Shown here: positions 5,902 to 63,740 of the stretch, piece by piece
Layout: the number at the start of each line of letters is the position of its first letter
Position numbering within the stretch: the stretch's first letter is position 1
NCBI GenBank assembly: GCA_964016885.1
Contig: OZ024747.1
Span: forward strand, 11,408,001 to 11,472,000
Direction of reading: 5' to 3'
Source: Eledone cirrhosa
Taxonomy: Eukaryota
DNA length: 64,000 nucleotides
Notes under the pieces: generated by a model
What the model was told of the DNA's origin: nothing
The model's input: the letters and a program-made list of their open reading frames with translations, nothing else
Databases searched by the model: none
Program-made: the position numbers and the translations under genes

Positions 5902-8757
5902 TGTGTTGTGTTGCAGTGTGGTGCTGCTGTGTTGTGTTGCAGTGTGGTGCTGCTGTGTTGTGTTGCAGTGTGGTGGTGTTGTGTTGTGTTGCAGTGTGGT
6001 GGTGTTGTGTTGCAGTGTGGTGGTGTTGTGTTGCAGTGTGGTGCTGCTGTGTTGTGTTGCAGTGTGGTGGTGTTGTGTTGTGTTGCAGTGTGGTGGTGTT
6101 GTGTTGCAGTGTGGTGGTGTTGTGTTGCAGTGTGGTGCTGCTGTGTTGTGTTGCAGTGTGGTGGTGTTGTGTTGCAGTGTGGTGGTGTTGTGTTGTGTTG
6201 CAGTGTGGTGCTGCTGTGTTGTGTTGCAGTGTGGTGGTGTTGTGTTGCAGTGTGGTGCTGCTGTGTTGTGTTGCAGTGTGGTGTTGCACTGTGGAGGTGT
6301 TGTGTTGTGTTGCAGTGTGGTGTTGCTGTGTTGCAGTGTGGTGCTGCTGTGTTGTGTTGCAGTGTGGTGCTGCTGTGTTGTGTTGCAGTGTGGTGGTGTT
6401 GTGTTGCAGTGTGGTGCTGCTGTGTTGTACTGTGGAGGTGTTGTGTTGTGTTGCAGTGTGGTGCTGCTGTGTTGTCTGTTGTGTTGCACTGTGGAGGTGT
6501 TGTGTTGTGTTGCAGTGTGGTGGTGCTGTGTTGCACTGTGGAGGTGTTGTGTTGTGTCGCAGTGTGGTGTTGCTGTGTTGCAGTGTGGTGGTGCTGTGTT
6601 GCACTGTGGAGGTGTTGTGTTGTGTTGCAGTGTGGTGTTGCTGTGTTGCAGTGTGGTGGTGCTGTGTTGCACTGTGGAGGTGTTGTGTTGTGTTGCAGTG
6701 TGGTGTTGCTGTGTTACAGTGTGGTGGTGCTGTGTTGCACTGTGGAGGTGTTGTGTTGTGTTGCAGTGTGGTGTTGCTGTGTTGCAGTGTGGTGGTGCTG
6801 TGTTGTCTGTTGTGTTGCACTGTGGTGTTGTGTTGCAGTGTGGTGGTGCTGTGTTGTCTGTTGTGTTGCACTGTGGAGGTGTTGTGTTGTGTTGCAGTGT
6901 AGTGGTGTTGTGTTGCAGTGTAGTGGTGTTGTGTTGCAGTGTGGTGGTGCTGTGTTGTCTGTTGTGTTGCACTGTGGAGGTTGTTGTGTTGTGTTGCAGT
7001 GTAGTGGTGTTGTGTTGCAGTGGCAGTGCTGTGTTTGTTGCAATGTGGTGGTGTTGTGTGGTAGTGAGGTGGTGTTGTGTTGTAGTGTGGTGGTGTTGTG
7101 TTGCAGTGGTGGTGTTGTGTTGTAGTGTGGTGGTGTTGTATTGTAGTGGTGGTGTTGTGTTGTAGTGTGGTGGTGTTGTGTTGCAGTGGTGGTGTTGTGT
7201 TGTAGTGTGGTGGTGTGTTGCAGTGGTGGTGGTGTGTTGTAGTGTGGTGGTGTTGTGTTGTAGTGTGGTGGTGTTGTGTTGTAGTGTGGTGGTGTTGTGT
7301 TGTAGTGTGGTGGTGTGTTGCAGTGGTGGTGGTGTGTTGTAGTGTGGTGGTGTTGTGTTGTAGTGTGGTGGTGTTGTGTTGTAGTGTGGTGGTGTGTTGC
7401 AGTGGTGGTGTTGTGTTGTAGTGTGGTGGTGTTGTGTTGTAATGTGGTGTTGTGTTGCAGTGGTGGTGGTGTGTTGTAGTGTGGTGGTGTTGTGTTGTAG
7501 TGTGGTGGTGTTGTGTTGTAGTGAGGTGGTGTTGTGTTGTAGTGAGGCGGTGTTGCGTTGTAGTGAGGTGGTGTTGTGTTGCAGTGGTGGTGGTGTTGTG
7601 TTGTAGTGTGGTGGTGTTGTGTTGTAGTAAGGTGGTGTTGTGTTGTAGTAAGGTGGTGTTGTGTTGTAGTGTGGTGTTGTGTTGCAGTGGTGGTGTTGTG
7701 TTGTAGTGGTGGTGTTGTGTTGTAGTGTGGTGGTGTTGTGTTGTAATGTGGTGTTGTGTTGCAGTGGTGGTGGTGTTGTGTTGTAGTGTGGTGTTGCGTT
7801 GTAGTGAGGTGGTGTTGTGTTATAGTGAGGTGGTGTTGTGTTGTAGTGAGGTGGTGTTGTGTGGTGGTGTTGTGAGGTGGTGTTGTGTTGTAGTGGTGGT
7901 GTTGTGTTGTAGTGAGGTGGTGTTGTGTTGTAGTGGTGTTGTGTTGTAATGGTGGTGTTGTGTTGTAGTGTAGTGGTGTTGTGTTGTAGTGTGGTGGTGT
8001 TGTGTTGTAGTGGTGGTATTGTGTTGTAGTGAGGTGGTGTTGTGTTGTAGTGGTGGTGTTGTGTTGTAGTGTGGTGGTGTTGTGTTGTGTTGTAGTGTGG
8101 TGGTGTTGTGTTGTAGTGAGGTGGTGTTGTGTTGTAGTGAGGTGGTGTTGTGTTGTAGTGGTGATGTTGTGTTGTAGTGGTGGTGTTGTGTTGTAGTGAG
8201 GTGGTGTTGTGTTGTAGTGAGGTGGTGTTGTGTTGTGTTGTAGTGGTGGTGGTGTTGTGTTGTAGTGTGGTGGTGTTGTGTTGTAGTGAGGTGGTGTTGT
8301 GTTGTAGTGTGGTGGTGTTGTGTTGTAGTAAGGTGGTGTTGTGTTGTAGTGTGGTGGTGTTGTGTTGTAGTGAGGTGCTGTTGTGTTGTAGTGTGGTGTT
8401 GTGTTGCAGTGGTGGTGGTGTGTTGTAGTGAGGTGTTGTTGTCTTGTAGTGTGGTGGTGTTGTGTTGTAGTGTGGTGTTGTGTTGCAGTGGTGGTGTTGT
8501 GTTGTAGTGGTGGTGTTGTCTTGTAGTGTTGTGTTGTAGTGGTGGTGTTGTGTTGTAGTGTGGTGTTGTGTTGTAGTGTGGTGTTGTGTTGCAGTGGTGG
8601 TGTTGTGTTGCAGTGGTGGTGTTGTGTTGTAGTGGTGGTGTTGTCTTGTAGTGTGGTGTTGTGTTGTAGTGGTGGTGTTGTGTTGTAGTGTGGTGTTGTG
8701 TTGCAGTGGTGGTGTTGTGTTGTAGTGGTGGTGTTGTCTTGTAGTGTGGTGTTGTGT
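5902..8757. repeat. 2.85-kb GT-rich composite satellite (gtgtt/gcagt/gtagt/ggt)
   Basis: Directly visible; source of the overlapping Q/H/N/T and V/C/L ORFs. Confidence 0.97.
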
Positions 8758-8927
8758 AGATGAGAGAGAGAGTGTTAGGTAGAAAGAGCTGTAGTATTTC
8801 ATCAACATTATCTGTGTGTGGTGTATCTGTATGTGTGGTGTGTCTGTCTGTATGTGTCTGTGTGTGGTGTGTCGGGTTGTGTGTGTGTCTGTGTGTGTGT
8901 CTGTGTGTGTGTGGTGAGAAGAGTGAC

Positions 8928-9872
8928 TCATAAGACAGGTTGGTGAAAGGTGACCCGTCCATTGAGACAGCCTGCTACATACATGCAGTGATTTGGTGCA
9001 AATTTAGCTGTCACCACAACATTGGTGTGTGCCATATTACATGCCACCTCACACATCTTCAATGGCCGCTGTGGCACACAGTCAGGTAACTCGAGGCACT
9101 GCGGGTTGAATGCGAGCAGGCGTGTTCCAAAGCCGAATGGTGAACAAATGAGGCGGCCATCAGAGCTGAAGCAGAGCTCCTTAATGAAACCTCTCCCAAC
9201 ATTTGGCTCCTCGCTATAATAGAGTAGACGTGGCTGGTTCTTGTGAATACGATAGAGGTGAGATGGGTATGACTTAACACCTGAGCACACGGCCAACATC
9301 CTCTTCTGTTGCTGATGTTGCTGCTGTCCAGCACGGAATATAAAGGTGTAGTCGACAGGCATACGTGAAGAGGAACTCCCACTGGTACTTGCCTCAGGAC
9401 GGCCAGTTTCCATGGGGCTTGCCTCTTCTCTTGAAGAACGGTGTCTTGTCAAGGAGGAGGACGAGGAAGAAGGAGGAGCGGTGCTGTTTTCTGTATTTGG
9501 TGCTGATGACTGGTGCTGGTTGCCATTGCTGGTTGTTGCACCTCTCTGCATTTCTCGGTGCACAGGTGAAAAACCATTTGGTAGTGCCGAGCTTAATTGG
9601 GTTGATTCTCGAAATGTTGAAGAATGAGCCCGAGTTGTGGCTATGTGAGGTCGGGACGACGATGGCAGTGAACCTCTAACGGCTTCATTAGCTTGGACAT
9701 TCTGTCCCTGTTGGTGTGAAGGCGAGAATGACGAGGGACTAACGTCTACTCGGGGAGTTCTATAGTAAAGTATTCGGTTACGAGTCGGTCTTCTACTAGA
9801 GGTGATACGACTTCTCGGTAGAAAATCAGAAGGATCGGAACCATCCCCACCTGCACCGGCAACACCACCACC

Positions 9873-12136: not shown

Positions 12137-12320
12137 GAGGGCAGTTGATTGGCAGAATTGATAGAGCGTCAGACAGCATGCTTTGCGGCATAAAGTTACG
12201 ACCCTTTACGTTTTGAGTTCAAATCCCGTTGGGGTTAGCTTTGCCTTTCATCTTTACTGGGTCAATGAAATTAAGTACCAGTCTTGCACTGGGGTTGATT
12301 TAATCGACTCCCCCTCCCCA
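12137..12320 (+). mobile_element. SINE family 1 copy
   Basis: tRNA-like head (tggcagaattg..., gagttcaaatccc) followed by tttgcctttcatc...aagtaccag. Confidence 0.75.
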
Positions 12321-13248: not shown

Positions 13249-13434
13249 CACCTGTTTATGTCCCATGTGTATATACTTCCTATATACATATATATATTAG
13301 AAAGTGAGGTTTTTTTTTACAAAATGAAAAATAACCGGTGTCCTACACGAGTGAAAGTATAAAGAAAAAAAGATGAAATCGAAAATGCAACTGGAGTCTT
13401 ATTTTTAAAAAAAATATATATATTTATTCGGTTC

Positions 13435-13470
13435 CTTTACCGGTTTCGCAGTTCTTCTGCTTTTCAAAAG
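13435..13470 (-). ncRNA. Putative minimal type I hammerhead ribozyme, U3-A8 core variant
   Basis: Minus strand CTT-TTGAAAA-GCAG-aagaa-CTGC-GAAA-CCGG-TA-AAG followed by AATAAA; part of a repeat also at 26070 and 36893. Confidence 0.55.
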
Positions 13471-13550
13471 TAGAGTTGAGATGGAGGGTCTATGGTTTTT
13501 CTCACATCTCAGATATTTATATATATATATAGAGAGAGAGAGAGACTCAC

Positions 13551-14329: not shown

Positions 14330-14398
14330 GGTTGGATGCTTAAAGCGTCCGTTTGCGGTAGGCCGTTTGAACACTCGATATCTGCTTCGTAGAATCAA

Positions 14399-14494
14399 GA
14401 CGTATCTGAGGACCTTGCGATTTTCAGAGTCAGGTTCGATCATCACATCGATCGTGCCTCGAGCTGGTCACCAGAGAAACGATTGTAATATGTC
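14399..14494 (+). ncRNA. Putative type I hammerhead ribozyme with extended stem II
   Basis: Stem I gacgtat/atatgtc, core CTGAGGA (14406), GAAA (14476), stem III CGATTG, GTA triplet, then AATAAA. Confidence 0.6.
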
Positions 14495-14696
14495 CAATAA
14501 ATTCCATTCGTCGCAACACTGATTCTCTTTTTTTCTGTGATATATAATATATATATATATCATCCTCTATATATATATATATATATATATCAGGTCATTA
14601 AGTATGAAATGTCCGGTTTCGAATTGAAAGTTTAGTTTTATCTCAAAAGAGCAGTGCAATGCTGGGACCTTAGTCTTTATAGACTGGCTCTATGAC

Positions 14697-14880
14697 AGTG
14701 GATTGGCAGTATCGGTAGAGGGTCGGACGCCATGCTTTCCAGCATAGTTACGTCCCTTTACGATCTGAGTTCAAATCCCGCCGAGGTTGACTTTGCCTTT
14801 CATCCTTACGGGGTCGATAAAATAAAGTACCAGTAATGCACTGGGTAATTGCTGGCCTTGTGCCTAAAGTAGAAACAATT
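14697..14880 (+). mobile_element. SINE family 1 full copy
   Basis: A-box-like tggcagtatcgg, B box gagttcaaatccc, core gcctttcatccttacggggtcgataaaataaagtaccag. Confidence 0.85.
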
Positions 14881-15599: not shown

Positions 15600-17157
15600 G
15601 TATGGTTGCACGCATCATCAATCAGGCTATATATGGTGGTGTCATACCCAAAGACTGGTGCAGCAGTATTCTCATAAATTGTTACAAAGGTAAAGTGGAT
15701 GCTCTGGAGAGGAGCAATTATAGGGGTATAAAACTGATTGATCAGGTTATGAAAATGGCAGAAAGGATATTAGCACAACTAATTAGAGAAAGGGTCAAAC
15801 TACATGAGATGCAGTTTGGTTTTGTGCCTGGGAAGAGTACAACAGATGCCCTCTTCTTGGTGAGACAATTACAAGAGAGGTTCTTAGAGAAAAATAAGCC
15901 ACTATACTTAGCCTTTGTTGACCTAGAGAAGGCCTTTGATAGGGTACCCCAATCTGTCATCTGGTGGTCCCTAAGGAAACTAGGTGTTGAGGACAGTGCA
16001 AAATTTGAACAGAGGTACTGTCAGTAAAGTCAGGGTAGGAATGGAGTTTAGTGAGGAATTCCAGATACAAGTAAGAGTACATCAAGGTTCGGTCCTCAGC
16101 CCGCTCTTGTTCATTATAGTCCTCCAAGCCATAACAGAGGAGTTTAAGACTGGCTGCCCATGGGAACTTCTCTATGCTGACGATTTGGTTCTTATAGCAG
16201 AATCAGTAGAGGAGCTAAAGAATAAATTCTGGCTATGGAAACAGCAGTTGGAAGCAAGAGGACTGAGAGTGAACCTAGCTAAGACAAAAGTGTTGATGAG
16301 TAGAAAAGAGGACAAAACTCTGATTCTGTCAGGGAAATGGCCATGTTCGATATGCAGAAAAGAAACTGGCATAAATTCTATAAAATGCACACAATGCAGA
16401 TCCTGGGTACACAAGATGTAGTGGGATAACAGGCAAACTAACAGGTAGGAAGAAATACGTATGCAGTAGATGTACAGGGAAATTAGACAGTAGAAGTCGC
16501 ATTGATAGACACATTTTTCAAATGCAGGCGGGTGCTATAGAAGTGGTGGATAGCTTCCGGTACCTAGGAGATCAGATTAGCACGGGAGGGGGTGTTCCGA
16601 GGCCATAGTATCTAGAATAAGGACGGGTTGGAAGAAGTTTAGGGAGCTGCTTCCTCTGCTGACGAAGAAGGGTTTCTCCCTGCGTACAAAAGGCCAGTTA
16701 TATGATGCCTGTATGAGGAGCGCGATGCTGCATGGTAATGAGACATGAGCAGCAACTGCAGAGGATATGCAATGGCTGGAGAGAAATGAGGCAAGTATGC
16801 TCCGTTGGATGTGCAATGTCAATGTGTGTGAACGACCCAGCATAAATGTGTTGAGAGAGAAACTGTGTCTGACAGGGATAGAATGTAGTGTACGGGAGAG
16901 GAGACTGAGGTGGTATGGACATGTGATTCGCATGGAGGATGACCAATGGGTGAAGAAGTGCCAGGAATTGCCAGTTGAAGGAAGACGTGGTAGAGGTAGA
17001 TCATGAAAAACATGGGCGGAGGTGGTGAGAACAGACCTCAGATCGCTGAAGCTCATGGTGGAGATGACGAAGGACCGTGACAAGTGGAGAGATGTTGTGC
17101 TGAATAAGACCCGTCCCAACCTTGCAAGCAGGGAAAAGCGGACGTAAAATGATGATA
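15600..17157 (+). mobile_element. 5'-truncated RTE LINE, family A (disrupted RT)
   Basis: NYRGIKL, QFGFVPG, FVDLEKAFDRV, HQGSVLSPLLF, LLYADDLVL; frameshifts and stops; (GAT)n tail; flanked by (TA)n. Confidence 0.92.
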
Positions 17158-18045: not shown

Positions 18046-18504
18046 GCTGTAAATTCAAAGGTCCGGGTGAGCAGATCGATACTGGAGTCAGGTCAATCAC
18101 ATCAATAAAGACCCCAAGCCAATAATCGGTGAAACATATGTAACGTTAATATGTTTCAACTCGTGTACAGATATTTCATCGCTATTCTAGAAGCAGAATA
18201 CTTGATCTTTACATCAGCTCAGTCCACCAGGATGGTGACCAGGTACCATTATTTTCTGAGGGGCAGGGGAAGAGATATCTGAACTAGCGTCCAATCCATG
18301 AAGAGATCAATAATTTAACGGTGAAATAACGATGAGTAGACTGGTTTTTTGTGATTGTGTATGTCTCATATTTATTATAGTATAACCATCACCACAACCA
18401 TCACCATAACCACTACCATTACCACCATCACGTCCTTTTTATGTTGACATGTGTTGAATGGCTTTGTAATAACTTACATGTAAAAACGTCAACATAATAC
18501 ACAC

Positions 18505-22560: not shown

Positions 22561-22576
22561 TTATATATATATATAT

Positions 22577-22761
22577 GACGGTGGATTAGCAGTATCAGTA
22601 GAGCGTCGGACGCCATGCTTTGATGCAAAGAGTTACGGCCCTTTCTATTCTAAGTTCAAATCCCGCCGAGGTTAACTTTGCCTTTCATCCTTACGGGGTC
22701 GATAAAATAAAGTACCAGTAATGTACTGGGTAATTGATGGCCTTGTGCCAAAAGTAGAAAC

Positions 22762-24804: not shown

Positions 24805-24998
24805 ATAATTGTTTCTACTTTTGGCACAAGGCCAGCAATTATCCCAGTGCATTACTGGTACTTTATTTTATCGACCCCGTAAGGATGAAAGGCAAAGTTA
24901 ACCTCGGCGGGATTTGAACTCAGACCATAAAGGGCCGTAACTCTTTGCATCAAAGCATGGCGTCAGACCCTCTACTGATACTGCCAATCCACCGCCCT
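24805..24998 (-). mobile_element. SINE family 1 full copy
   Basis: Reverse complement of 22577..22765. Confidence 0.85.
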
Positions 24999-30711: not shown

Positions 30712-31042
30712 CTATTTTATATCATATGTATGTGTATGTATATTTTATATTATATGTATGTGTGTTTATATTATATAAATATGTGTATATCTCACTAAAA
30801 CACTCCATTACATGCAAATTTTATATATAGCTACATGTGAATATTACATAGCTACATGTGTATATTATATATACAATATCTCTGTCTGATGACTGATCTA
30901 GACGTGTATTAATATTGTCTGGGATCCAGAAACCTTTGGTAATGGAGTAGTTATATCTTGTGTTATTCACTTTCTAACTAAATAGCTCTGTTCTATACAT
31001 AGAGCACTCTTTTTTCCTTTGCTTTTTCTTCAGAATTACCTA

Positions 31043-31078
<36 letters not shown>

Positions 31079-31489
31079 GTTTTTCCAAATTGAAGGATGA
31101 GTATTTTAGACTTTATTTTATCATGAGTTAAGGCTCTATTGATTTTTCCCTGGATTTCACTAAATTCTGTGGATGAATCAATATCCTGATTCTCTTTGAG
31201 ATGAGTTTGAATTATTTTTCCCACATCTTACGTTAACTATTTTTCCCATTTTGACGCTATAGTCACTTATATATTATGGAATACTGTTGGCTTTTTGCTA
31301 CAATGTTTTCTATACCTTTCATTTATATATATATATATATATATATAGTTTAGGGATTGTAACGTAAGTTGCTGTTGGTTCACCAATGTGAGCAGTCAAT
31401 GCGTAGTTTCCATTCTGTACTGTGGAGTTGTACTAAGGAGAGTGAAATAATTATGGACGAGGTGTGAAATTATCATTCTTAATGACAGA

Positions 31490-31581
31490 ATCTCTGATGA
31501 GCTTTTGATTCCAGAGTCAGACCCAACTGATAGGGAACCTTCGGCTGATCAATCGCGAAACACGTGTCACACCTGAATAAA
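31490..31581 (+). ncRNA. Putative hammerhead ribozyme, extended stem II family
   Basis: CTGATGA-GC...GC-GAAA-CACGTG-TC with intact core; stem I poorly paired; AATAAA follows. Confidence 0.55.
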
Positions 31582-31675
31582 CTTGATGATAATTTGACAC
31601 CTTCTTCTTCTTCTTCACCCTACATTGTGGCCTCGGATCTTTCACCATGTTTGCTTTTAGTGTTGTACTAATTAT

Positions 31676-31924: not shown

Positions 31925-32265
31925 GAGGCACATGGCTTAGTGGTTAGAGCATTGGCCTTGCAATCAAAAGGTTGTGAGTTCAATTCTCAGACTGGGTGAT
32001 GTGTTGTTTCCTTGAGCAAGACACTTTATTTCACATTGCTCCAGTTTACTCAGCTGTAGAAATGAGATGATAGGGACTGGGGTCCATATCATTCCACTGC
32101 AAAGTGGTCGTGGAGGTGCCACGACAAAAAAGCACCCAGCACTCACTGAAAATGAGGTTGGTGTTAGGAAGGGCATCCAGCTGTAGAAATCAAGCCAGAA
32201 TCAGTTCCCGTCCCACCCTTGCAAGCAGGGAAAAAGCGGACGTAAAATGATGATGATGATGATGA
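31925..32265 (+). mobile_element. tRNA-derived SINE family 2 with RTE-derived tail
   Basis: A box tggcttagtgg, B box gagttcaattc, body ccttgagcaagacacttt, tail cccgtcccacccttgcaagcagggaaaa..cggacgtaaaa(tga)n. Confidence 0.88.
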
Positions 32266-39184: not shown

Positions 39185-42100
39185 TCTGGTCTATGCTATC
39201 ACTTCTCCTGGTTGCTTTTCGATATGATGGATGGACTAAAGAATTCTGGAGAGTCTGAAGAATCTGGACACTCAGTGACAATGCCAAAGATAACGACAAA
39301 TTCACCTCATGCTGCCGGACGAAAAGGCAAGGACTCCTCCTCTTTGTTTCGGCCGCGGATGGCCAACATAACCCCAACCCCATCCCCCTCACCCCTCCCC
39401 ACGCCCCACCGTTCCCACCCACCAAACGCAATCTAAAACTTCAGAGTTGGTACCATGAATGTAGGCACCTTAAAAGGTTGCTCTAACGAGGTTGTAGAAA
39501 TGCTTGAACGTAAGGAGGTTGATGTTTGCTGTATCCAAGAGACCAGGTGGAGGGGCGGGTCAGCTAGATTCATGGGTGGAAAATGACAATGGGCTGGGTG
39601 GGGTAGGAATCATGTTAGCAGAAAAATGGGTGGATAAGATAATAGACGTAAATAGAGTGAACGACAGAATAATTAAAATAAGACTTGTTCTAAATAGAAC
39701 TACTGTGATAGTAATATCTGCATACGCACCCCAATCCGGACTGCCTGGCGCTATAAAAGACAGATTCTACGAGACACTGATGCTCACTACCTCCCAAATA
39801 ACCGACAGTGACTATATAATTATTGCTGGCAACCTAAATGGTCACGTTGGACAACATTGTGACGGCTATGATGGAATCCATGGAGGCTATGGGTTTGGTA
39901 CTAGAAATGAGGAAGGCTCCAGAATCCTGGAATTCTGTGACGCAAATAACCTAACTATCTATAACACTAACTTCAAAAAACGAGACAATCACTTGATCAC
40001 CTACAGATCAGGGAAACATACCAGCCAGGTAGATTATATCCTTACCAGAAGACGTGACAGAGTGTCTGTTGTAAACACTAAATCCCTCCCCCATGAAGAA
40101 TACACCTCTCAACATAGACTCATAATTAGGGACCTCATAGTCAGGACGAGACGTACTCGACAACAGAAGAGGACTATCCTCAGGAGAAAAATATGGAAGC
40201 TAATGGACCCCACAGCCAGTAATAAATTTAAAAGCATATTACTTGATGCTTCGACAGTAAGGAAGAGCAATTAGAGTCGTACAATATAGAGGAACAGTGG
40301 GAATTCCTGAAAGCAAACCTGCTGAAGGTGGCAGATGAAGTCTGTGGCTGGAGCAGGCCTATAGGCAGGAGGAGAGTAACGTGGTGGTGGAACAGTAAGG
40401 TAGAGGAGTCAATTAAGGCCAAAAAGCAGGCTTGGAAAGTATGGCGGGATGGGGGAAGTAGAGAAGACTATCAAGTGGCCAGGAGGGAAGCTAGGAGACA
40501 AGTGTACTTTGCAAAAAGGGAAGCAGAGGAAAGAAAGTTCAAGCATGTTCTACAATGCGAGGACCAAAGACGTGAGGTGTTCAGGATTGCTAGGCAATGT
40601 GTCAAGGAAAACCGTGATATTGTCAGGGAGAAGTGTGTCCTTAATGATGATGGTGTACTTGCCATCACTGACGCTGATAAGAAGGTAGCTTGGAAGTGTC
40701 ACTACGAAAGGCTACTAAATGAGGAGAATAAATGGGAGAAAGACAGTCTCCTCCACATCGATCCAATAGAGGGACCAGCAGTGTTAGTCGAAGGTAGTAT
40801 AATAAGTAAGGCAATCAAAGATATGAAGATGGGTAAGGCGGCTGGGCCTTCGGAAATAGTTGCTGAAATGCTGAAAGCTTCTGGAACGGTGGGACACACT
40901 ATGGTCACCCGGATAGTAAACCAAGTCATACAGAATGGGGTTGTTCCGAAGGACTGGCGTAGCAGCATCATCATTAACTGCTACAAGGGTAAAGGAGATG
41001 CCCTAGATAGGGGTAACTATAGAGGCATTAAATTAATCGACCAGGTCATGAAGGTCACAGAAAAAGTAATAGCGCAACTAATCAGAGAGCGAATTGATCT
41101 AGATGAAATGCAGTTCAAGTTTGTGTCAGGTAAAAGTACCACAGACGCTCTTTTCATTGTACGACAACTACAGGAGAAGTACCTAGCTAAAAGTAAACCC
41201 CTATACTTATCTTTTGTCGACTTGGAGAAAGCCTTTGACAGAGTCTCCCGTTCCATTATCTGGTGGGCTCTTAGAAAACTAGGTGCTGATGAATGGCTTG
41301 TGAGAGCTATACAAGCCATGTATAAAGAAACAGTCAGCAAGGTTAGAATTAACAACAAATATAGTGAAGAGTTTAGCGTAAAAGTTGGCGTCCATCAGGG
41401 CTCTGTTATCAGCCCCCTACTATTTATTATTGCCCTTCAGGCTATAACAGAGGAGTTCAAGACCGGCTGCCCATGGGAACTCCTATATGCAGATGATCTA
41501 ATGCTCATAGCTGAATCAATGGCTGAACTAGAGAAGAAATTCCAAACATGGAAGCATGGCCTAGAATCAAAAGGCCTTAAAATTAACCTGTCTAAGACTA
41601 AAGTTCTAGTTTGTAGGAAGGAAAATAGGGCACCAGTCCCATCTGGGAAATGGCCATGCTCAGTGTGTAGGAAAGGAGTAGGCAGAAACTCCATTTTATG
41701 TCCCAAATGCAAAGTATGGGTGCATAAAAGATGTAGTGGGATCACAGGTAAGCTAACTAAGAATATAGATTTTATATGTGGCCGGTGCTCTGGTGCAATA
41801 AGTAGCAGTAAGTGCCCACAGAATACTAGCTCATTCCATTGCACAGATGGTTCTATAGAAATAGCGGACACCTTCCGTTACTTGGGTGACAAAATCGGCA
41901 GTGGTGGAGGGTGCTCTGAAAGTACAGTAGCTAGAGTCAGAACTGGATGCAAAAAGTTCAGAGAGCTAATACCACTATTAGCCGCTAAAGGGTTCTCTCT
42001 AAAAATGAAAGGCAGGCTGTATGATGCCTGCATACAAACAGCAATATTACATGGCAGTGAGACCTGGGCATTGTGTGCAGACTGGAGAGGAACGAAGCTT

Positions 42101-48662: not shown

Positions 48663-48733
48663 GTTCCCTGATGAGCTGAGACTTCTTACAGTGCTTAGAA
48701 ACTGCGATTACTCAGCAAAACTTCAGTTGGGAC
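48663..48733 (+). ncRNA. Decayed type I hammerhead ribozyme
   Basis: gttcc-CTGATGA-GCTGAG...CTCAGC-AAAA(for GAAA)-CTTCAG-TT-gggac. Confidence 0.55.
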
Positions 48734-48894
48734 ATCAAAGTAAATCATTCTTTTTCTTGTCCTGTTTACTTTTCCTAGAGTCGGGCCAGATCAATACAGA
48801 TCGTGCCTTGAGCTGATTACTTGTGAAACACATGTCACATCTCAATAAATGCAACGAAGATCTAACATCTCGTCCTTTTTATTACTATATATAG

Positions 48895-55359: not shown

Positions 55360-56652
55360 AAATAAGCCACTATACTTAGCCTGTGTTGACCTAGAGAAGG
55401 CCTTTGATAGGGTACCCTGATCTGTCATCTGGTGGTCCCTAAGGAAGCTAGGTGTTGAGGAATGGCTTGTGAGGACAGTGCAAACTTTGTACAGAGGTTC
55501 TCTCAGTAAAGTCAGGGTAGGAATGGAGTTTAGTGAGGAATTCCAGATACAAGTAGGAGTACATCAAGGTTCGGTCCTCAGCCTGCTCTTGTTCATTATA
55601 GTCCTCCAAGCCATAACAGAGGAGTTTAAGACTGGCTGTCCATGGGAACTTCTCTATGCTGACGATTTGGTTCTTATAGCAGAATCAGTAGAGGAGCTAG
55701 AGAATAAATTCTGGCTATGGAAACAGCAGTTGGAAGCAAGAGGACTGAGAGTGAACCTAGCTAAGACAAAAGTGTTGATGAGTAGAAAAGAGGACAACAC
55801 TCTGATTCCATCAGGGAAATGGCCATGTTCGATATGCAGAAAAGGAACTGGCATAAATTCTATAAAATGCACACAATGCAGATCCTGGGTACACAAGAGA
55901 TGTAGCGGGATAGCAGGCAAACTAACAGGTAGGGAGAAATATGTATGCAGTAGATGTACAGGGAAATTAGACAGTAGAAGTCGCATTGATAGACACATTT
56001 TTCAAATGCAGGAGGGTGCTATAGAAGTGGTGGATAGCTTCCGGTACCTAGGAGATCAGATTAGCATGGGAGGAGGGTGTTCCGAGGCCATAGTATCTAG
56101 AATAAGGATGAGTTGGAAGAAGTTTAGGGAGCTGCTTCCTCTGCTGACGAAGAAGGGTTTCTCCCTGTGTACGAAAGGCCGGTTGTATGATGCCTGTGTG
56201 AGGAGCGCGATGCTGCATGGTAGTGAGACATGGGCAGCAACTGCAGAGGATATGTGACGGCTGGAGAGAAATGAGGCAAGCATGCTCCGTTGGATGTGCA
56301 GTGTAAATGTGCGTGAATGACCCAGCATAAATGTGTTGAGAGAGAAACTGTGTGAGAGGGATAGAATGTAGTGTACAGGAGAGGAGACTGAGGTGGTATG
56401 GACATGTGATGCGCATGGATGATGACCGATGGGTGAAGAAGTGCCAGGAAATGCCAGTTGAAGGAAGACGTGGTAGAGGTAGACCACGAAAAACATAGGC
56501 GGAGGTGGTGAGAACAGACCTCAGATTATTGAAGCTCACAGTGGAGATGACGAAGGACCGTGACGAGTGGAGAGATGCTGTGCTGAATAAGACCCGTCCC
56601 ACCCTTGCAAGCAGGGAAAAGCGGACGTACAATGATGATGATAATGATGATG
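55360..56652 (+). mobile_element. 5'-truncated RTE LINE family A, copy 2
   Basis: Colinear with 15893..17157; YADD, PHD insert, premature stops; (GAT)n tail; inserted in (TA)n. Confidence 0.92.
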
Positions 56653-57189
56653 ATATATCTATATATATATACATACACACAATAAAGTGGTTGTGTAGGT
56701 ATCACTGCAAAAAGTACCCAGTACACACTAAATGTGGTTGGTGTTAGGATGGGCATTCGGTCATCGAATCCAAGCCAGAAACAGTTCTGTATGAGAAAGA
56801 CATGATCACCTGATCTGACTTATCTCAAATCGGACAACCCGTCTAACCTATGCTAGTGTGGAAAATAAACTTTAAATGATGATGATGATGCTACACAATA
56901 TATTTATTATAAATAACAAGATGAAGTTTCACATGAATGTTTTTATTGATTATAGACCCATCACATGTTTCACAGATGATTTGTTCAAAGTCCATATTAG
57001 TGTTTATAAACCTGACTCCAGCATTAATCTGATCCAGAATTGTTAATCAAGCAAAAACAAACATTTTATCTGGTGAGAGGATTGATGTAGTCATCTAGTG
57101 AAAAGATTGATATTGTAGTGATCTGGTGAGAAGATTGATGTTGTAGTCCGGTCTATATCACTAATATGAACCTATGGACCTTGAGCCAG

Positions 57190-57193
57190 TCAT
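57190..57193 (-). CDS. Possible terminal exon coding tip of the minus-strand gene
   Basis: tttcacag|A TGA would complete the phase-2 Lys codon then stop; minus-strand AATAAA at about 56942 and 56903. Confidence 0.35.
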
Positions 57194-57224
57194 CTGTGAA
57201 ACGTATGTAACAGGTCAATCAATA

Positions 57225-63272: not shown

Positions 63273-63394
63273 TTTTTTTAAAATATATATATATATATAT
63301 ATATCAGACCAGAGTCAGGTTCGATCATTAATAGATCGTTCCCCGAGCAGATCAACAGTGAAACATATGTAATATGTAATTAAATATGTATTGG

Positions 63395-63740
63395 AGACAC
63401 ATGGCTTAGTGGTTAGAGCATTGGCCTTGCAATCGAAAGGTTGTGAGTTCAATTCTCAGACCTGGTGATGTGTTGTTTCCTTGAGCAAGACACTTTATTT
63501 CACATTGCTCCAGTTTACTCAGCTGTAGAAATGAGATGATAGGGACTGGGGTCCATATCATTCCACTGCAAAGTGGTCGTGGAGGTGCCACGGCTAAAAA
63601 AGCACCCAGCACTCACTGTAAATGAGGTTGGTGTTGGGAAGGGCACCCAGCTGTAGAAATCAAGCTAGAATCAGTTCCTGTCCCACCCTTGCGAGCATGG
63701 AAAAAGCGGACGTAAAATGATGATGATGATGATGATGATA
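63395..63740 (+). mobile_element. SINE family 2 copy
   Basis: Nearly identical to 31925..32265. Confidence 0.88.

What the first reader, a model, noticed from the sequence alone, without database searches (positions are those of the whole stretch)
14399..14501. Hammerhead family whose stem II carries an invariant AGUC internal loop
Seen: five diverged copies (14399, 18060, 31490, 48775, 63309) share stem-AGTC-AGG-hairpin-CCY-YNRG-stem-GAAA-short stem III-GTH, most followed by AATAAA or ATTAAA. CTGANGA is intact at 14406 and 31494; AGTC is invariant; the flanking helix appears to covary (CAG/CTG versus TGG/CCA). Established: a 4x4 loop with N-GUC opposite NGAA is loop A of the hairpin ribozyme. 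Inference: an unusual hammerhead architecture with a conserved extra module, either a tertiary-docking loop, a protein site or a second cleavage/ligation site, in a Penelope-like or retrozyme repeat.
Basis: partly seen in the sequence, partly recalled or inferred. Interest (0 to 1): 0.78.

Follow-up and report, generated by a model that had tools for sequence, protein, structure and literature searches.

The report
Long-armed hammerheads of Penelope-like retrotransposons
These are ends of Penelope-like jumping genes whose hammerhead ribozyme has an unusually long arm with a small conserved RNA motif, kept in thousands of copies even where the catalytic core has changed; the motif is likely a protein-binding site rather than a second cutting site.

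Summary
The five copies are real. They are decayed 3' ends (pLTRs) of Hydra-clade Penelope-like elements, each from a different high-copy family. The genome holds at least 10,460 type I hammerhead matches with a 50-110 nt stem II (controls 1 and 3); published Hydra hammerheads have 3-7 bp. AGUC is not invariant. Across 28 families only G-C / A·G / one variable base / U-A is kept. Position +1 is G, A or U; in 14 longer families the base at the hairpin's G8 position is C or U, and the motif occurs twice, 10-12 nt apart. It fails as hairpin loop A: no loop B, reversed closing pair, no copy ends piling up at A|GUC. Copies come from uncut RNA, and 2,047 copies with a CCGUCGA core sit in two families that keep the motif. 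Best reading: a conserved binding site, likely for the element's own protein, on a hammerhead that serves partly as a scaffold (about 50%; binding untested). New variant of a known kind.

The parts
14380..14543 (+). Copy 1: pLTR/3' end of a young Hydra-clade Penelope-like family (A1), ending in (TA)n
   Evidence: same end lies 1.2-1.3 kb behind a Hydra-type endonuclease in L017/L135
14331..14379 (-). Inverted piece of the family's optional 3' tail, joined to copy 1
14399..14494 (+). Type I hammerhead: stem I 14399-14405 with 14488-14494 (7 bp), core CUGAGGA 14406-14412, stem II 14413-14475 (63 nt), GAAA 14476-14479, 2-bp stem III with 4-nt loop, predicted cut after GUA at 14487
   Evidence: read
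14427..14431 (+). 5' strand of the motif: G(-2) A(-1) G(+1, predicted bulge) U(+2) C(+3)
14460..14464 (+). 3' strand of the motif: C (predicted bulge) G A G C
14496..14501 (+). AATAAA just after stem I (role not tested)
18068..18147 (+). Copy 2: old family A2 (UGG/CCA helix); core decayed, AGTC 18086-18089
31485..31587 (+). Copy 3: family A3; core CUGAUGA 31494-31500, AGTC 31515-31518, decayed 3' strand
48772..48854 (+). Copy 4: family A4 (family core CCGACGA); 5'-truncated, AGTC 48779-48782
63309..63391 (+). Copy 5: family A5; 5'-truncated beside (TA)n, AGTC 63313-63316
57122..57223 (+).
   Evidence: 76% identity, E 9e-13
56939..57034 (-). Inverted partner of the copy at 57122
   Evidence: 76% identity, E 3e-13

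Best explanation
The five stretches are pLTR ends of Hydra-clade Penelope-like retrotransposons whose type I hammerhead has a very long stem II carrying a conserved motif (G-C pair, A·G mismatch, one variable and likely bulged base, U-A pair), and this motif likely is a protein-binding site, most likely for the element's own reverse transcriptase/endonuclease. Shown: the element type, the copy numbers, the paired helices, which bases are kept, that genomic copies span the uncut hammerhead, and that families with altered cores keep the motif. Inferred: the RNA folds as drawn in the cell; the A·G pair and bulge open the groove for a protein; the doubled motif one helical turn apart in the long-arm families serves two contacts on one face; self-cleavage is slow, protein-assisted or secondary, and the fold acts as a handle for building the transposition complex.
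For: Element: endonuclease with CxCx5C linker and CxxC..E..N..CxH upstream of A1, B1, B5, B6, B8, B9, B10 ends; 737-codon frame with RWK and DKT between two copies 3,116 bp apart; these are the Hydra marks in PMC8557442. Numbers: 5,512 and 4,948 matches, controls 1 and 3. Motif in 44 of 60 loci picked without reference to it, 12 more within one mismatch per strand; 4 of 3,000 shuffles exact. Over 28 families: A-1 28/28, U+2 28/28, U+2:A9 standard 28/28, -2:11 28/28, -3:12 28/28 with all four Watson-Crick types (shuffles 0/20,000), +3:8 23/28 against +3:7 8/28. Folding favours U+2:A9 (at least 0.6 in 8 of 14 A families) over U+2:G8 (at most 0.1 in 14 of 14). Second copy of the motif in 14 of 14 B families, 10-12 nt away on the 5' strand. 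Distance from the core is 13-15 nt in A and 27-37 nt in B. No copy begins at the hammerhead site (0 of 51; 0 of the 30 from unbiased loci). CCGUCGA core in 2,047 copies, control 0, motif exact in 17 of 20 loci; U4C and A6 changes lower activity (PMC3088659). The Poseidon hammerhead cuts only with the element's protein and uncut RNA is its template (PMC11167929).
Against: No binding or probing data. In Poseidon an RNA cut back to +20, which by my reading of the stated positions removes most of stem II, still works, so stem II need not be the binding site. Published Hydra elements and a relative in this genome (36-nt plain stem II in L530, linked by position only) lack the motif. A and B are separate protein lineages and the tree does not show them as sisters, so their motifs may not be homologous; the C-G to G-C swap between them is then no covariation, and at best it is one event. 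+3:8 is unpaired in 5 of 14 B families. The CCGUCGA family A16 has U·U at -3:12 and its majority sequence is not predicted to form the motif (0.06); nor are A8, A10, A11, A13. Five of the 28 families rest on one copy and two on two. Families are related, so shuffles overstate significance.
Confidence: 0.5

Rival explanations
1. The motif is an RNA tertiary contact that docks on stem I or the A-rich 3' strand and tunes hammerhead cleavage.
For: In the 14 A families the 3' strand was found at a fixed 11 nt from GAAA (used as anchor and matching GAGC in 11 of 14); AAUAAA follows stem I; stems I-III stay paired even in CCGUCGA families. Loop-loop contacts are the rule in fast hammerheads (PMC3088659).
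Against: The motif lies about 12 bp out in A and farther, at varying distance, in B, beyond the 4-7 bp stem I; it is kept where the core is altered. AAUAAA was part of my search patterns, so its presence is not independent.
Confidence: 0.2
2. The segment is a folding switch that keeps the hammerhead off: UC(A/G)G pairs with the core CUGA, or the RNA's 5' leader pairs with the base of stem II.
For: RNAalifold's consensus helix for the A alignment is core with UCRG; in A4 the core change U4C meets a G (C-G). Leader helices of 7-8 bp in A1, A3, A4, A6 begin near the 5' pile-up.
Against: Core pairing does not beat shuffles (139/500 for the covariation score), has probability at most 0.01 in 13 of 14 full-length folds, and is lost in A15 (AAUC). 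Leader helices are matched by 18-160 of 300 shuffles in those four families and are absent in others. Not tested for B.
Confidence: 0.12
3. The bases are kept for a reason other than RNA shape: shared descent, a splice acceptor (CAG before AGUC), a promoter element, or an editing site.
For: Many A families have pyrimidines plus CAG there; the D. virilis Penelope intron ends at its hammerhead (PMC4209133). B strands hold UAG, a preferred editing triplet (recalled).
Against: A2 has UGG, A16 UUG, B families UUG/UCG/AUG. Flanking pairs change on both sides while the motif stays. No A>G excess over T>C in copies (168 vs 142, p 0.78). No RNA data to test splicing.
Confidence: 0.12
4. The loop is hairpin-ribozyme loop A and gives a second cleavage or ligation site at A|GUC.
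For: In most A families the strands read AGUC and YGAG: G+1, G8, A9 are present and A10G is a working natural variant. B families hold a second internal loop that loosely recalls loop B.
Against: Closing pair is G-2/C11 in 27 of 28 (hairpin: C-2/G11, rarely A11); +1 is not G in 7 of 28 and in A15; position 8 is C or U in 14 of 14 B. A families have no loop B; their GAAAC is the hammerhead core, in register with stem I. B's second loop reads AGRY, without A22-A24, on a straight helix with no hinge. 1 of 73 copies starts at the A, none at the G.
Confidence: 0.03

Closest known systems
Hydra-clade Penelope-like elements and their hammerheads (Craig et al. 2021, PMC8557442; includes Hydra-1_Obim)
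   Same: RWK, DKT, CxCx5C, CxxC..E..N..CxH; C-terminal GIY-YIG; (TA)n targets; tandem and inverted copies; type I hammerhead near the 3' end with a small stem III.
   Different: The 26 Hydra rows of File S2 have stem II of 3-7 bp and loops of 3-10 nt. Here stem II is 57-97 nt with one or two conserved motifs, and cores CCGACGA and CCGUCGA are fixed in whole families.
Minimal PLE hammerheads (Cervera and de la Pena 2014, PMC4209133)
   Same: In pLTRs, mostly as dispersed truncated copies, small palindromic stem III, predicted dimer-dependent low activity.
   Different: Their longer helix II is 6-8 bp; no internal conserved motif is described in the two of four parts read.
Poseidon PAc RNA (Frangieh et al. 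2024, PMC11167929)
   Same: Uncut RNA is the template; two 3' ends (tail); AT-rich targets.
   Different: There the ORF starts at stem II and the needed RNA is +20 to +172; here the B10 start codon lies over 300 nt behind the core and stem II is non-coding.
Hairpin ribozyme loop A (Weinberg et al. 2021, PMC8216279)
   Same: Surface likeness of AGUC opposite YGAG in short-arm families.
   Different: Reversed closing pair, G+1 and G8 not kept, no loop B, different predicted register.
Animal non-LTR retrozymes (bioRxiv 10.64898/2026.07.22.740005)
   Same: Short hammerhead-bearing units derived from PLE pLTRs.
   Different: Retrozymes are head-to-tail arrays; the copies read here are single or inverted and tied to Hydra ORFs.

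Membership tests
Type I hammerhead ribozyme | Core CUGANGA and GAAA with NUH site | tested here: met
   Copies 1 and 3 and most family majorities; altered in A4 (CCGACGA) and A15/A16 (CCGUCGA)
Type I hammerhead ribozyme | Stems I, II, III in register with paired changes | tested here: met
   84% of 425 cells paired, 15 of 27 pairs change on both sides, 0/500 shuffles reach the score, slid controls 28-37%. RNAalifold alone did not find this fold.
Type I hammerhead ribozyme | Self-cleavage after NUH | not testable with these tools
   No RNA run listed; no genomic copy starts at the site
Type I hammerhead ribozyme | Match to an Rfam hammerhead model | tested here: not met
   None among the 150 listed of 152 window matches at E<=10; 0 at gathering score in 6 loci; likely due to the long arm
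Hydra-clade Penelope-like element | RWK and DKT in RT; CxCx5C linker; CxxC and CxH around E and N; no CCHH | tested here: met
   L283 frame; A1 endonuclease; A1 RT piece 44% like L283. Pfam gave no hit.
Hydra-clade Penelope-like element | pLTRs, tandem or inverted copies, (TA)n targets | tested here: met
Hydra-clade Penelope-like element | ORF linked to each family | tested here: inconclusive
   Linked for A1, A12, A13-like, B1, B5, B6, B8, B9, B10; not for A2-A5, the families of window copies 2-5, which are placed by RNA likeness only
Hairpin ribozyme | G+1 and G8 invariant | tested here: not met
   +1 G in 21 of 28, 8 G in 14 of 28; AAUC in A15
Hairpin ribozyme | C-2/G11 pair | tested here: not met
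   G-2/C11 in 27 of 28
Hairpin ribozyme | Loop B with A22, A23, A24, C25, A38 and a hinge or junction | tested here: not met
   By inspection of family sequences; no Rfam hairpin match
HDV-like ribozyme (to explain the sharp 5' end) | P1, P1.1, P2, P3, L3, C75 | tested here: not met
   Loose descriptor: 0 hits in 15 of 18 sequences; hits in 3 do not use the 5' end seen in A1
Sarcin-ricin/bulged-G motif (recalled) | AGUA/GAA with fixed bulged G and sheared A·G after U·A | tested here: not met
   Bulge is G, A or U; next pair is C-G, G-C, G·U or a mismatch; definition from memory
Non-LTR retrozyme | Head-to-tail monomers each with a hammerhead; circular RNA | tested here: inconclusive
   No short-period array in the window (150 of 159 rows shown) or in the loci read; circles not testable

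The most novel reading that the evidence does not exclude
In this lineage the Penelope hammerhead has turned into a mainly non-catalytic scaffold: its arm grew into a telomerase-RNA-like handle with one or two A·G/bulge/U-A sites that the telomerase-related reverse transcriptase binds, so families with a crippled core (CCGUCGA) still spread to thousands of copies, and the short-arm families also move as roughly 170-nt units on their own.
Probability: 0.3. Interest if true: 0.75.

Novelty: new variant of a known kind. Interest (0 to 1): 0.52.

Why it matters
What hammerheads do in Penelope-like elements is an open question: they are nearly universal there, cut poorly, and are not needed for insertion in vitro. 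These families offer a natural series to test it: long and short arms, one or two motifs, normal and altered cores, and near-intact ORFs. If the motif binds the protein, it is a defined RNA site for the closest retrotransposon relatives of telomerase. It also shows that over ten thousand hammerhead-like RNAs in one animal genome escape Rfam models and short-stem descriptors.

Tried and rejected
Rfam: no hammerhead or hairpin match. Expression: no RNA holder listed; the four runs laid are contigs of one study and show only that the last 170 nt are far deeper than the upstream part. Other organisms: 8 viral-contig matches are chance hits without stem I, most inside reading frames; a protein-alignment scan of metagenomes found no relative; of 118 metagenome pattern matches none has both stems and the motif, one (L491) has a 7-bp stem I and stays unexplained. 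So the range outside this genome is unknown. Rejected: hairpin loop A, HDV-like ribozyme at the 5' end, RNA-editing footprint, core-sequestering helix as a covarying element, splice acceptor as the common cause. Likeness to k-turn, SECIS, SRP helix 8 and telomerase P6.1 was judged from memory and dropped because the order of pairs or the other families do not fit. The tree test that A and B form one clade did not finish. Earlier findings: three look-ups, nothing. Paper searches showed no description of this arm or of an A6U core; Repbase, Dfam, subscription journals and the supplements of PMC4209133 were not seen.

Full report
Observation. Only copies 1 and 3 keep the core; copy 2 is decayed and copies 4 and 5 are 5'-truncated. 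Copy 1 is a full type I hammerhead: 7-bp stem I, CUGAGGA, 63-nt stem II, GAAA, 2-bp stem III, predicted cut after 14487, then AATAAA. Rfam lists no hammerhead or hairpin family. A further inverted pair lies at 56939-57223.

What the copies belong to. The window lies in a 3.0-Gb genome; I take it to be a cephalopod from its size and repeats, which no call confirms. Each copy is one of a different repeat family (187 to 1,941 first-look candidates). Copy 1's family is young, often inverted head to head, and sits in (TA)n. Its end lies 1.2-1.3 kb behind a GIY-YIG endonuclease with a CxCx5C linker and CxxC..E..N..CxH; only 3 of the 30 loci showed this family's hammerhead within the 1.5 kb held, and two more showed related ends at the locus edge. 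A related family has a 737-codon frame with RWK and DKT between two ends 3,116 bp apart. These are the marks of the Hydra clade (PMC8557442, passages). The families of copies 2-5 were not linked to an ORF and are placed by RNA likeness.

How common the long arm is. A pattern that does not name the motif finds 5,512 matches with 50-80 nt between the core halves and 4,948 with 81-110 nt; reversed controls give 1 and 3. Of the 60 loci returned, 44 hold the motif exactly, 12 within one mismatch per strand and 4 not; shuffles give 4 exact and 292 near in 3,000. The 26 Hydra rows of File S2 have stem II of 3-7 bp.

What is conserved. I grouped copies into 14 short-arm families (A, 57-63 nt) and 14 long-arm families (B, 78-97 nt), with 1-33 copies each; five rest on one copy. 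In 16 real A copies the three-stem structure is paired in 84% of cells, 15 of 27 pairs change on both sides, and no shuffle reaches the score; RNAalifold by itself did not recover it. Using hairpin numbering, over 28 families A-1 and U+2 are invariant, A9 27, G10 26, C11 27; +1 is G 21, A 4, U 3 (one A is a tie among decayed A8 copies); +3 is C 14, G 9, U 4, A 1; position 8 is G 14, U 9, C 5. Pair -3:12 is standard in 28 of 28 with all four types. U+2:A9 is standard in 28 of 28 and +3:8 in 23, whereas the 4x4 register gives +2:8 in 14 and +3:7 in 8. Folding favours the same register (U+2:A9 at least 0.6 in 8 of 14 A families; U+2:G8 at most 0.1 in all; four families do not form it). The motif is thus G-C, A·G, one extra base, U-A. 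All 14 B families carry a second copy nearer the core, 10-12 nt away on the 5' strand and 9-10 on the 3', with its own paired changes (U-A 10, C-G 4; G-C 12, A-U 2). Anchors were set by me, families are related, and the C-G/G-C swap between A and B is one event at most.

Altered cores. A4 has CCGACGA. A pattern for CCGUCGA finds 2,047 copies, control 0, in two families; 17 of 20 loci hold the motif exactly and 3 nearly. One family (A15, about 44 of the 100 listed, counted by eye) reads AAUC, so AGUC varies even among short arms; its stem I has changed on both sides. The other (A16) has U·U at -3:12 and is not predicted to fold the motif. U4C and A6C lower activity in vitro (PMC3088659, passages and section 8); a search for A6U found no paper. 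These cores may still cut slowly.

Fossil record of RNA ends. Among 73 A1 copies chosen by their 3' part, 28 begin within 9 nt about 30 nt before the core, 64 end at one place, 1 begins at the A of AGUC and none at the G. None of 51 copies (30 from unbiased loci) begins at the hammerhead site, and exact matches 3' of the site are not more frequent than those across it (649 vs 732). The template was therefore uncut RNA with a defined 5' end, as for Poseidon, whose hammerhead cuts only with the element's protein (PMC11167929, main text). In A2-A7 most copies share under 55 nt upstream, while B copies often run on. The 5' end is not explained by an HDV-like fold; a start site inside the pLTR is my guess.

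Hairpin ribozyme. G+1, G8, A38, C25 and A22-A24 are invariant in 941 hairpins, A10G is allowed, and C-2/G11 is nearly fixed (PMC8216279, passages). Here G+1 and G8 vary, the closing pair is reversed, A has no loop B, and B's second loop lacks A22-A24 and a hinge. Membership fails.

Origin. A quick tree of 148 endonuclease columns puts A rows (100) and B rows (100) in separate groups inside one branch of 16 rows from this genome (97); B groups weakly (87) with rows of unknown RNA, one of which has a plain 36-nt stem II by position. One origin with losses, or two origins, cannot be told apart. No outside example was found, but those collections are mostly microbial.

Mechanism. Shown: element type, long paired arm, conserved and doubled motif, independence from core distance and core quality, uncut template. 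Inferred: the motif is read by a protein, most likely the element's own (0.5). Against this, Poseidon needs little of stem II and other Hydra elements lack the arm. Rivals: tertiary docking (0.2), folding switch (0.12), non-structural cause (0.12), second cleavage site (0.03).

Papers seen: PMC8557442 passages and supplement parts; PMC4209133 parts 1-2 of 4; PMC11167929 passages and main text; PMC8216279 passages; PMC3088659 passages and one section; bioRxiv 10.64898/2026.07.22.740005 part 1 of 5. Nine searches showed no report of this arm; repeat databases were not available, so the families themselves may be catalogued.

Verdict. Real, partly mis-described, not a hairpin loop. A new variant of Penelope hammerheads with a conserved module of untested function. 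Interest 0.52.

Noticed in passing
window 13425-13471, minus strand: Short-stem hammerhead of another repeat family with core UUGAAAA (U3-A8 swap); copies recur in several loci.
   Followed up: partly
window 30880-30950: Type I hammerhead-like stretch with a 36-nt stem II that lacks the motif.
   Followed up: partly
window 48668-48722: CUGAUGA followed by a GCUGAG/CUCAGC arm and AAAAC: possibly a decayed hammerhead just upstream of copy 4.
   Followed up: no
L535-L554 (G000:C1): Two otherwise different families share the same double core change CCGUCGA; convergence or exchange not resolved.
   Followed up: partly
L010 1483-1491 (window about 14372-14380): Sharp 5' boundary of A1 copies; a GGA-rich word sits about 30 nt before the core in several A families and can pair with the base of stem II in four.
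   Followed up: partly
L491 291-392: Single metagenome record with a 7-bp stem I, a 58-nt middle part holding ACATT and TAGGC, beside what looks like an animal receptor exon; no clear stem II.
   Followed up: no
window 14698-14868, 22564-22753, 24819-24993, 2035-2186, 12144-12293 and others: Abundant short repeat, with tRNA-like heads at 31931-31994 and 63402-63459; likely SINEs.
   Followed up: no
window about 16100-16300, 41400-41600, 55600-55800: LINE-type reverse transcriptase remnants (YADD).
   Followed up: no
L031 minus strand 6168-9593: 1,142-codon non-LTR reverse transcriptase frame, unrelated to the hammerhead family.
   Followed up: no
L019 1-550 minus strand; L003: Pieces of other Penelope-like clades (Neptune-like and Poseidon-like by recalled motifs) next to these insertions.
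   Followed up: no
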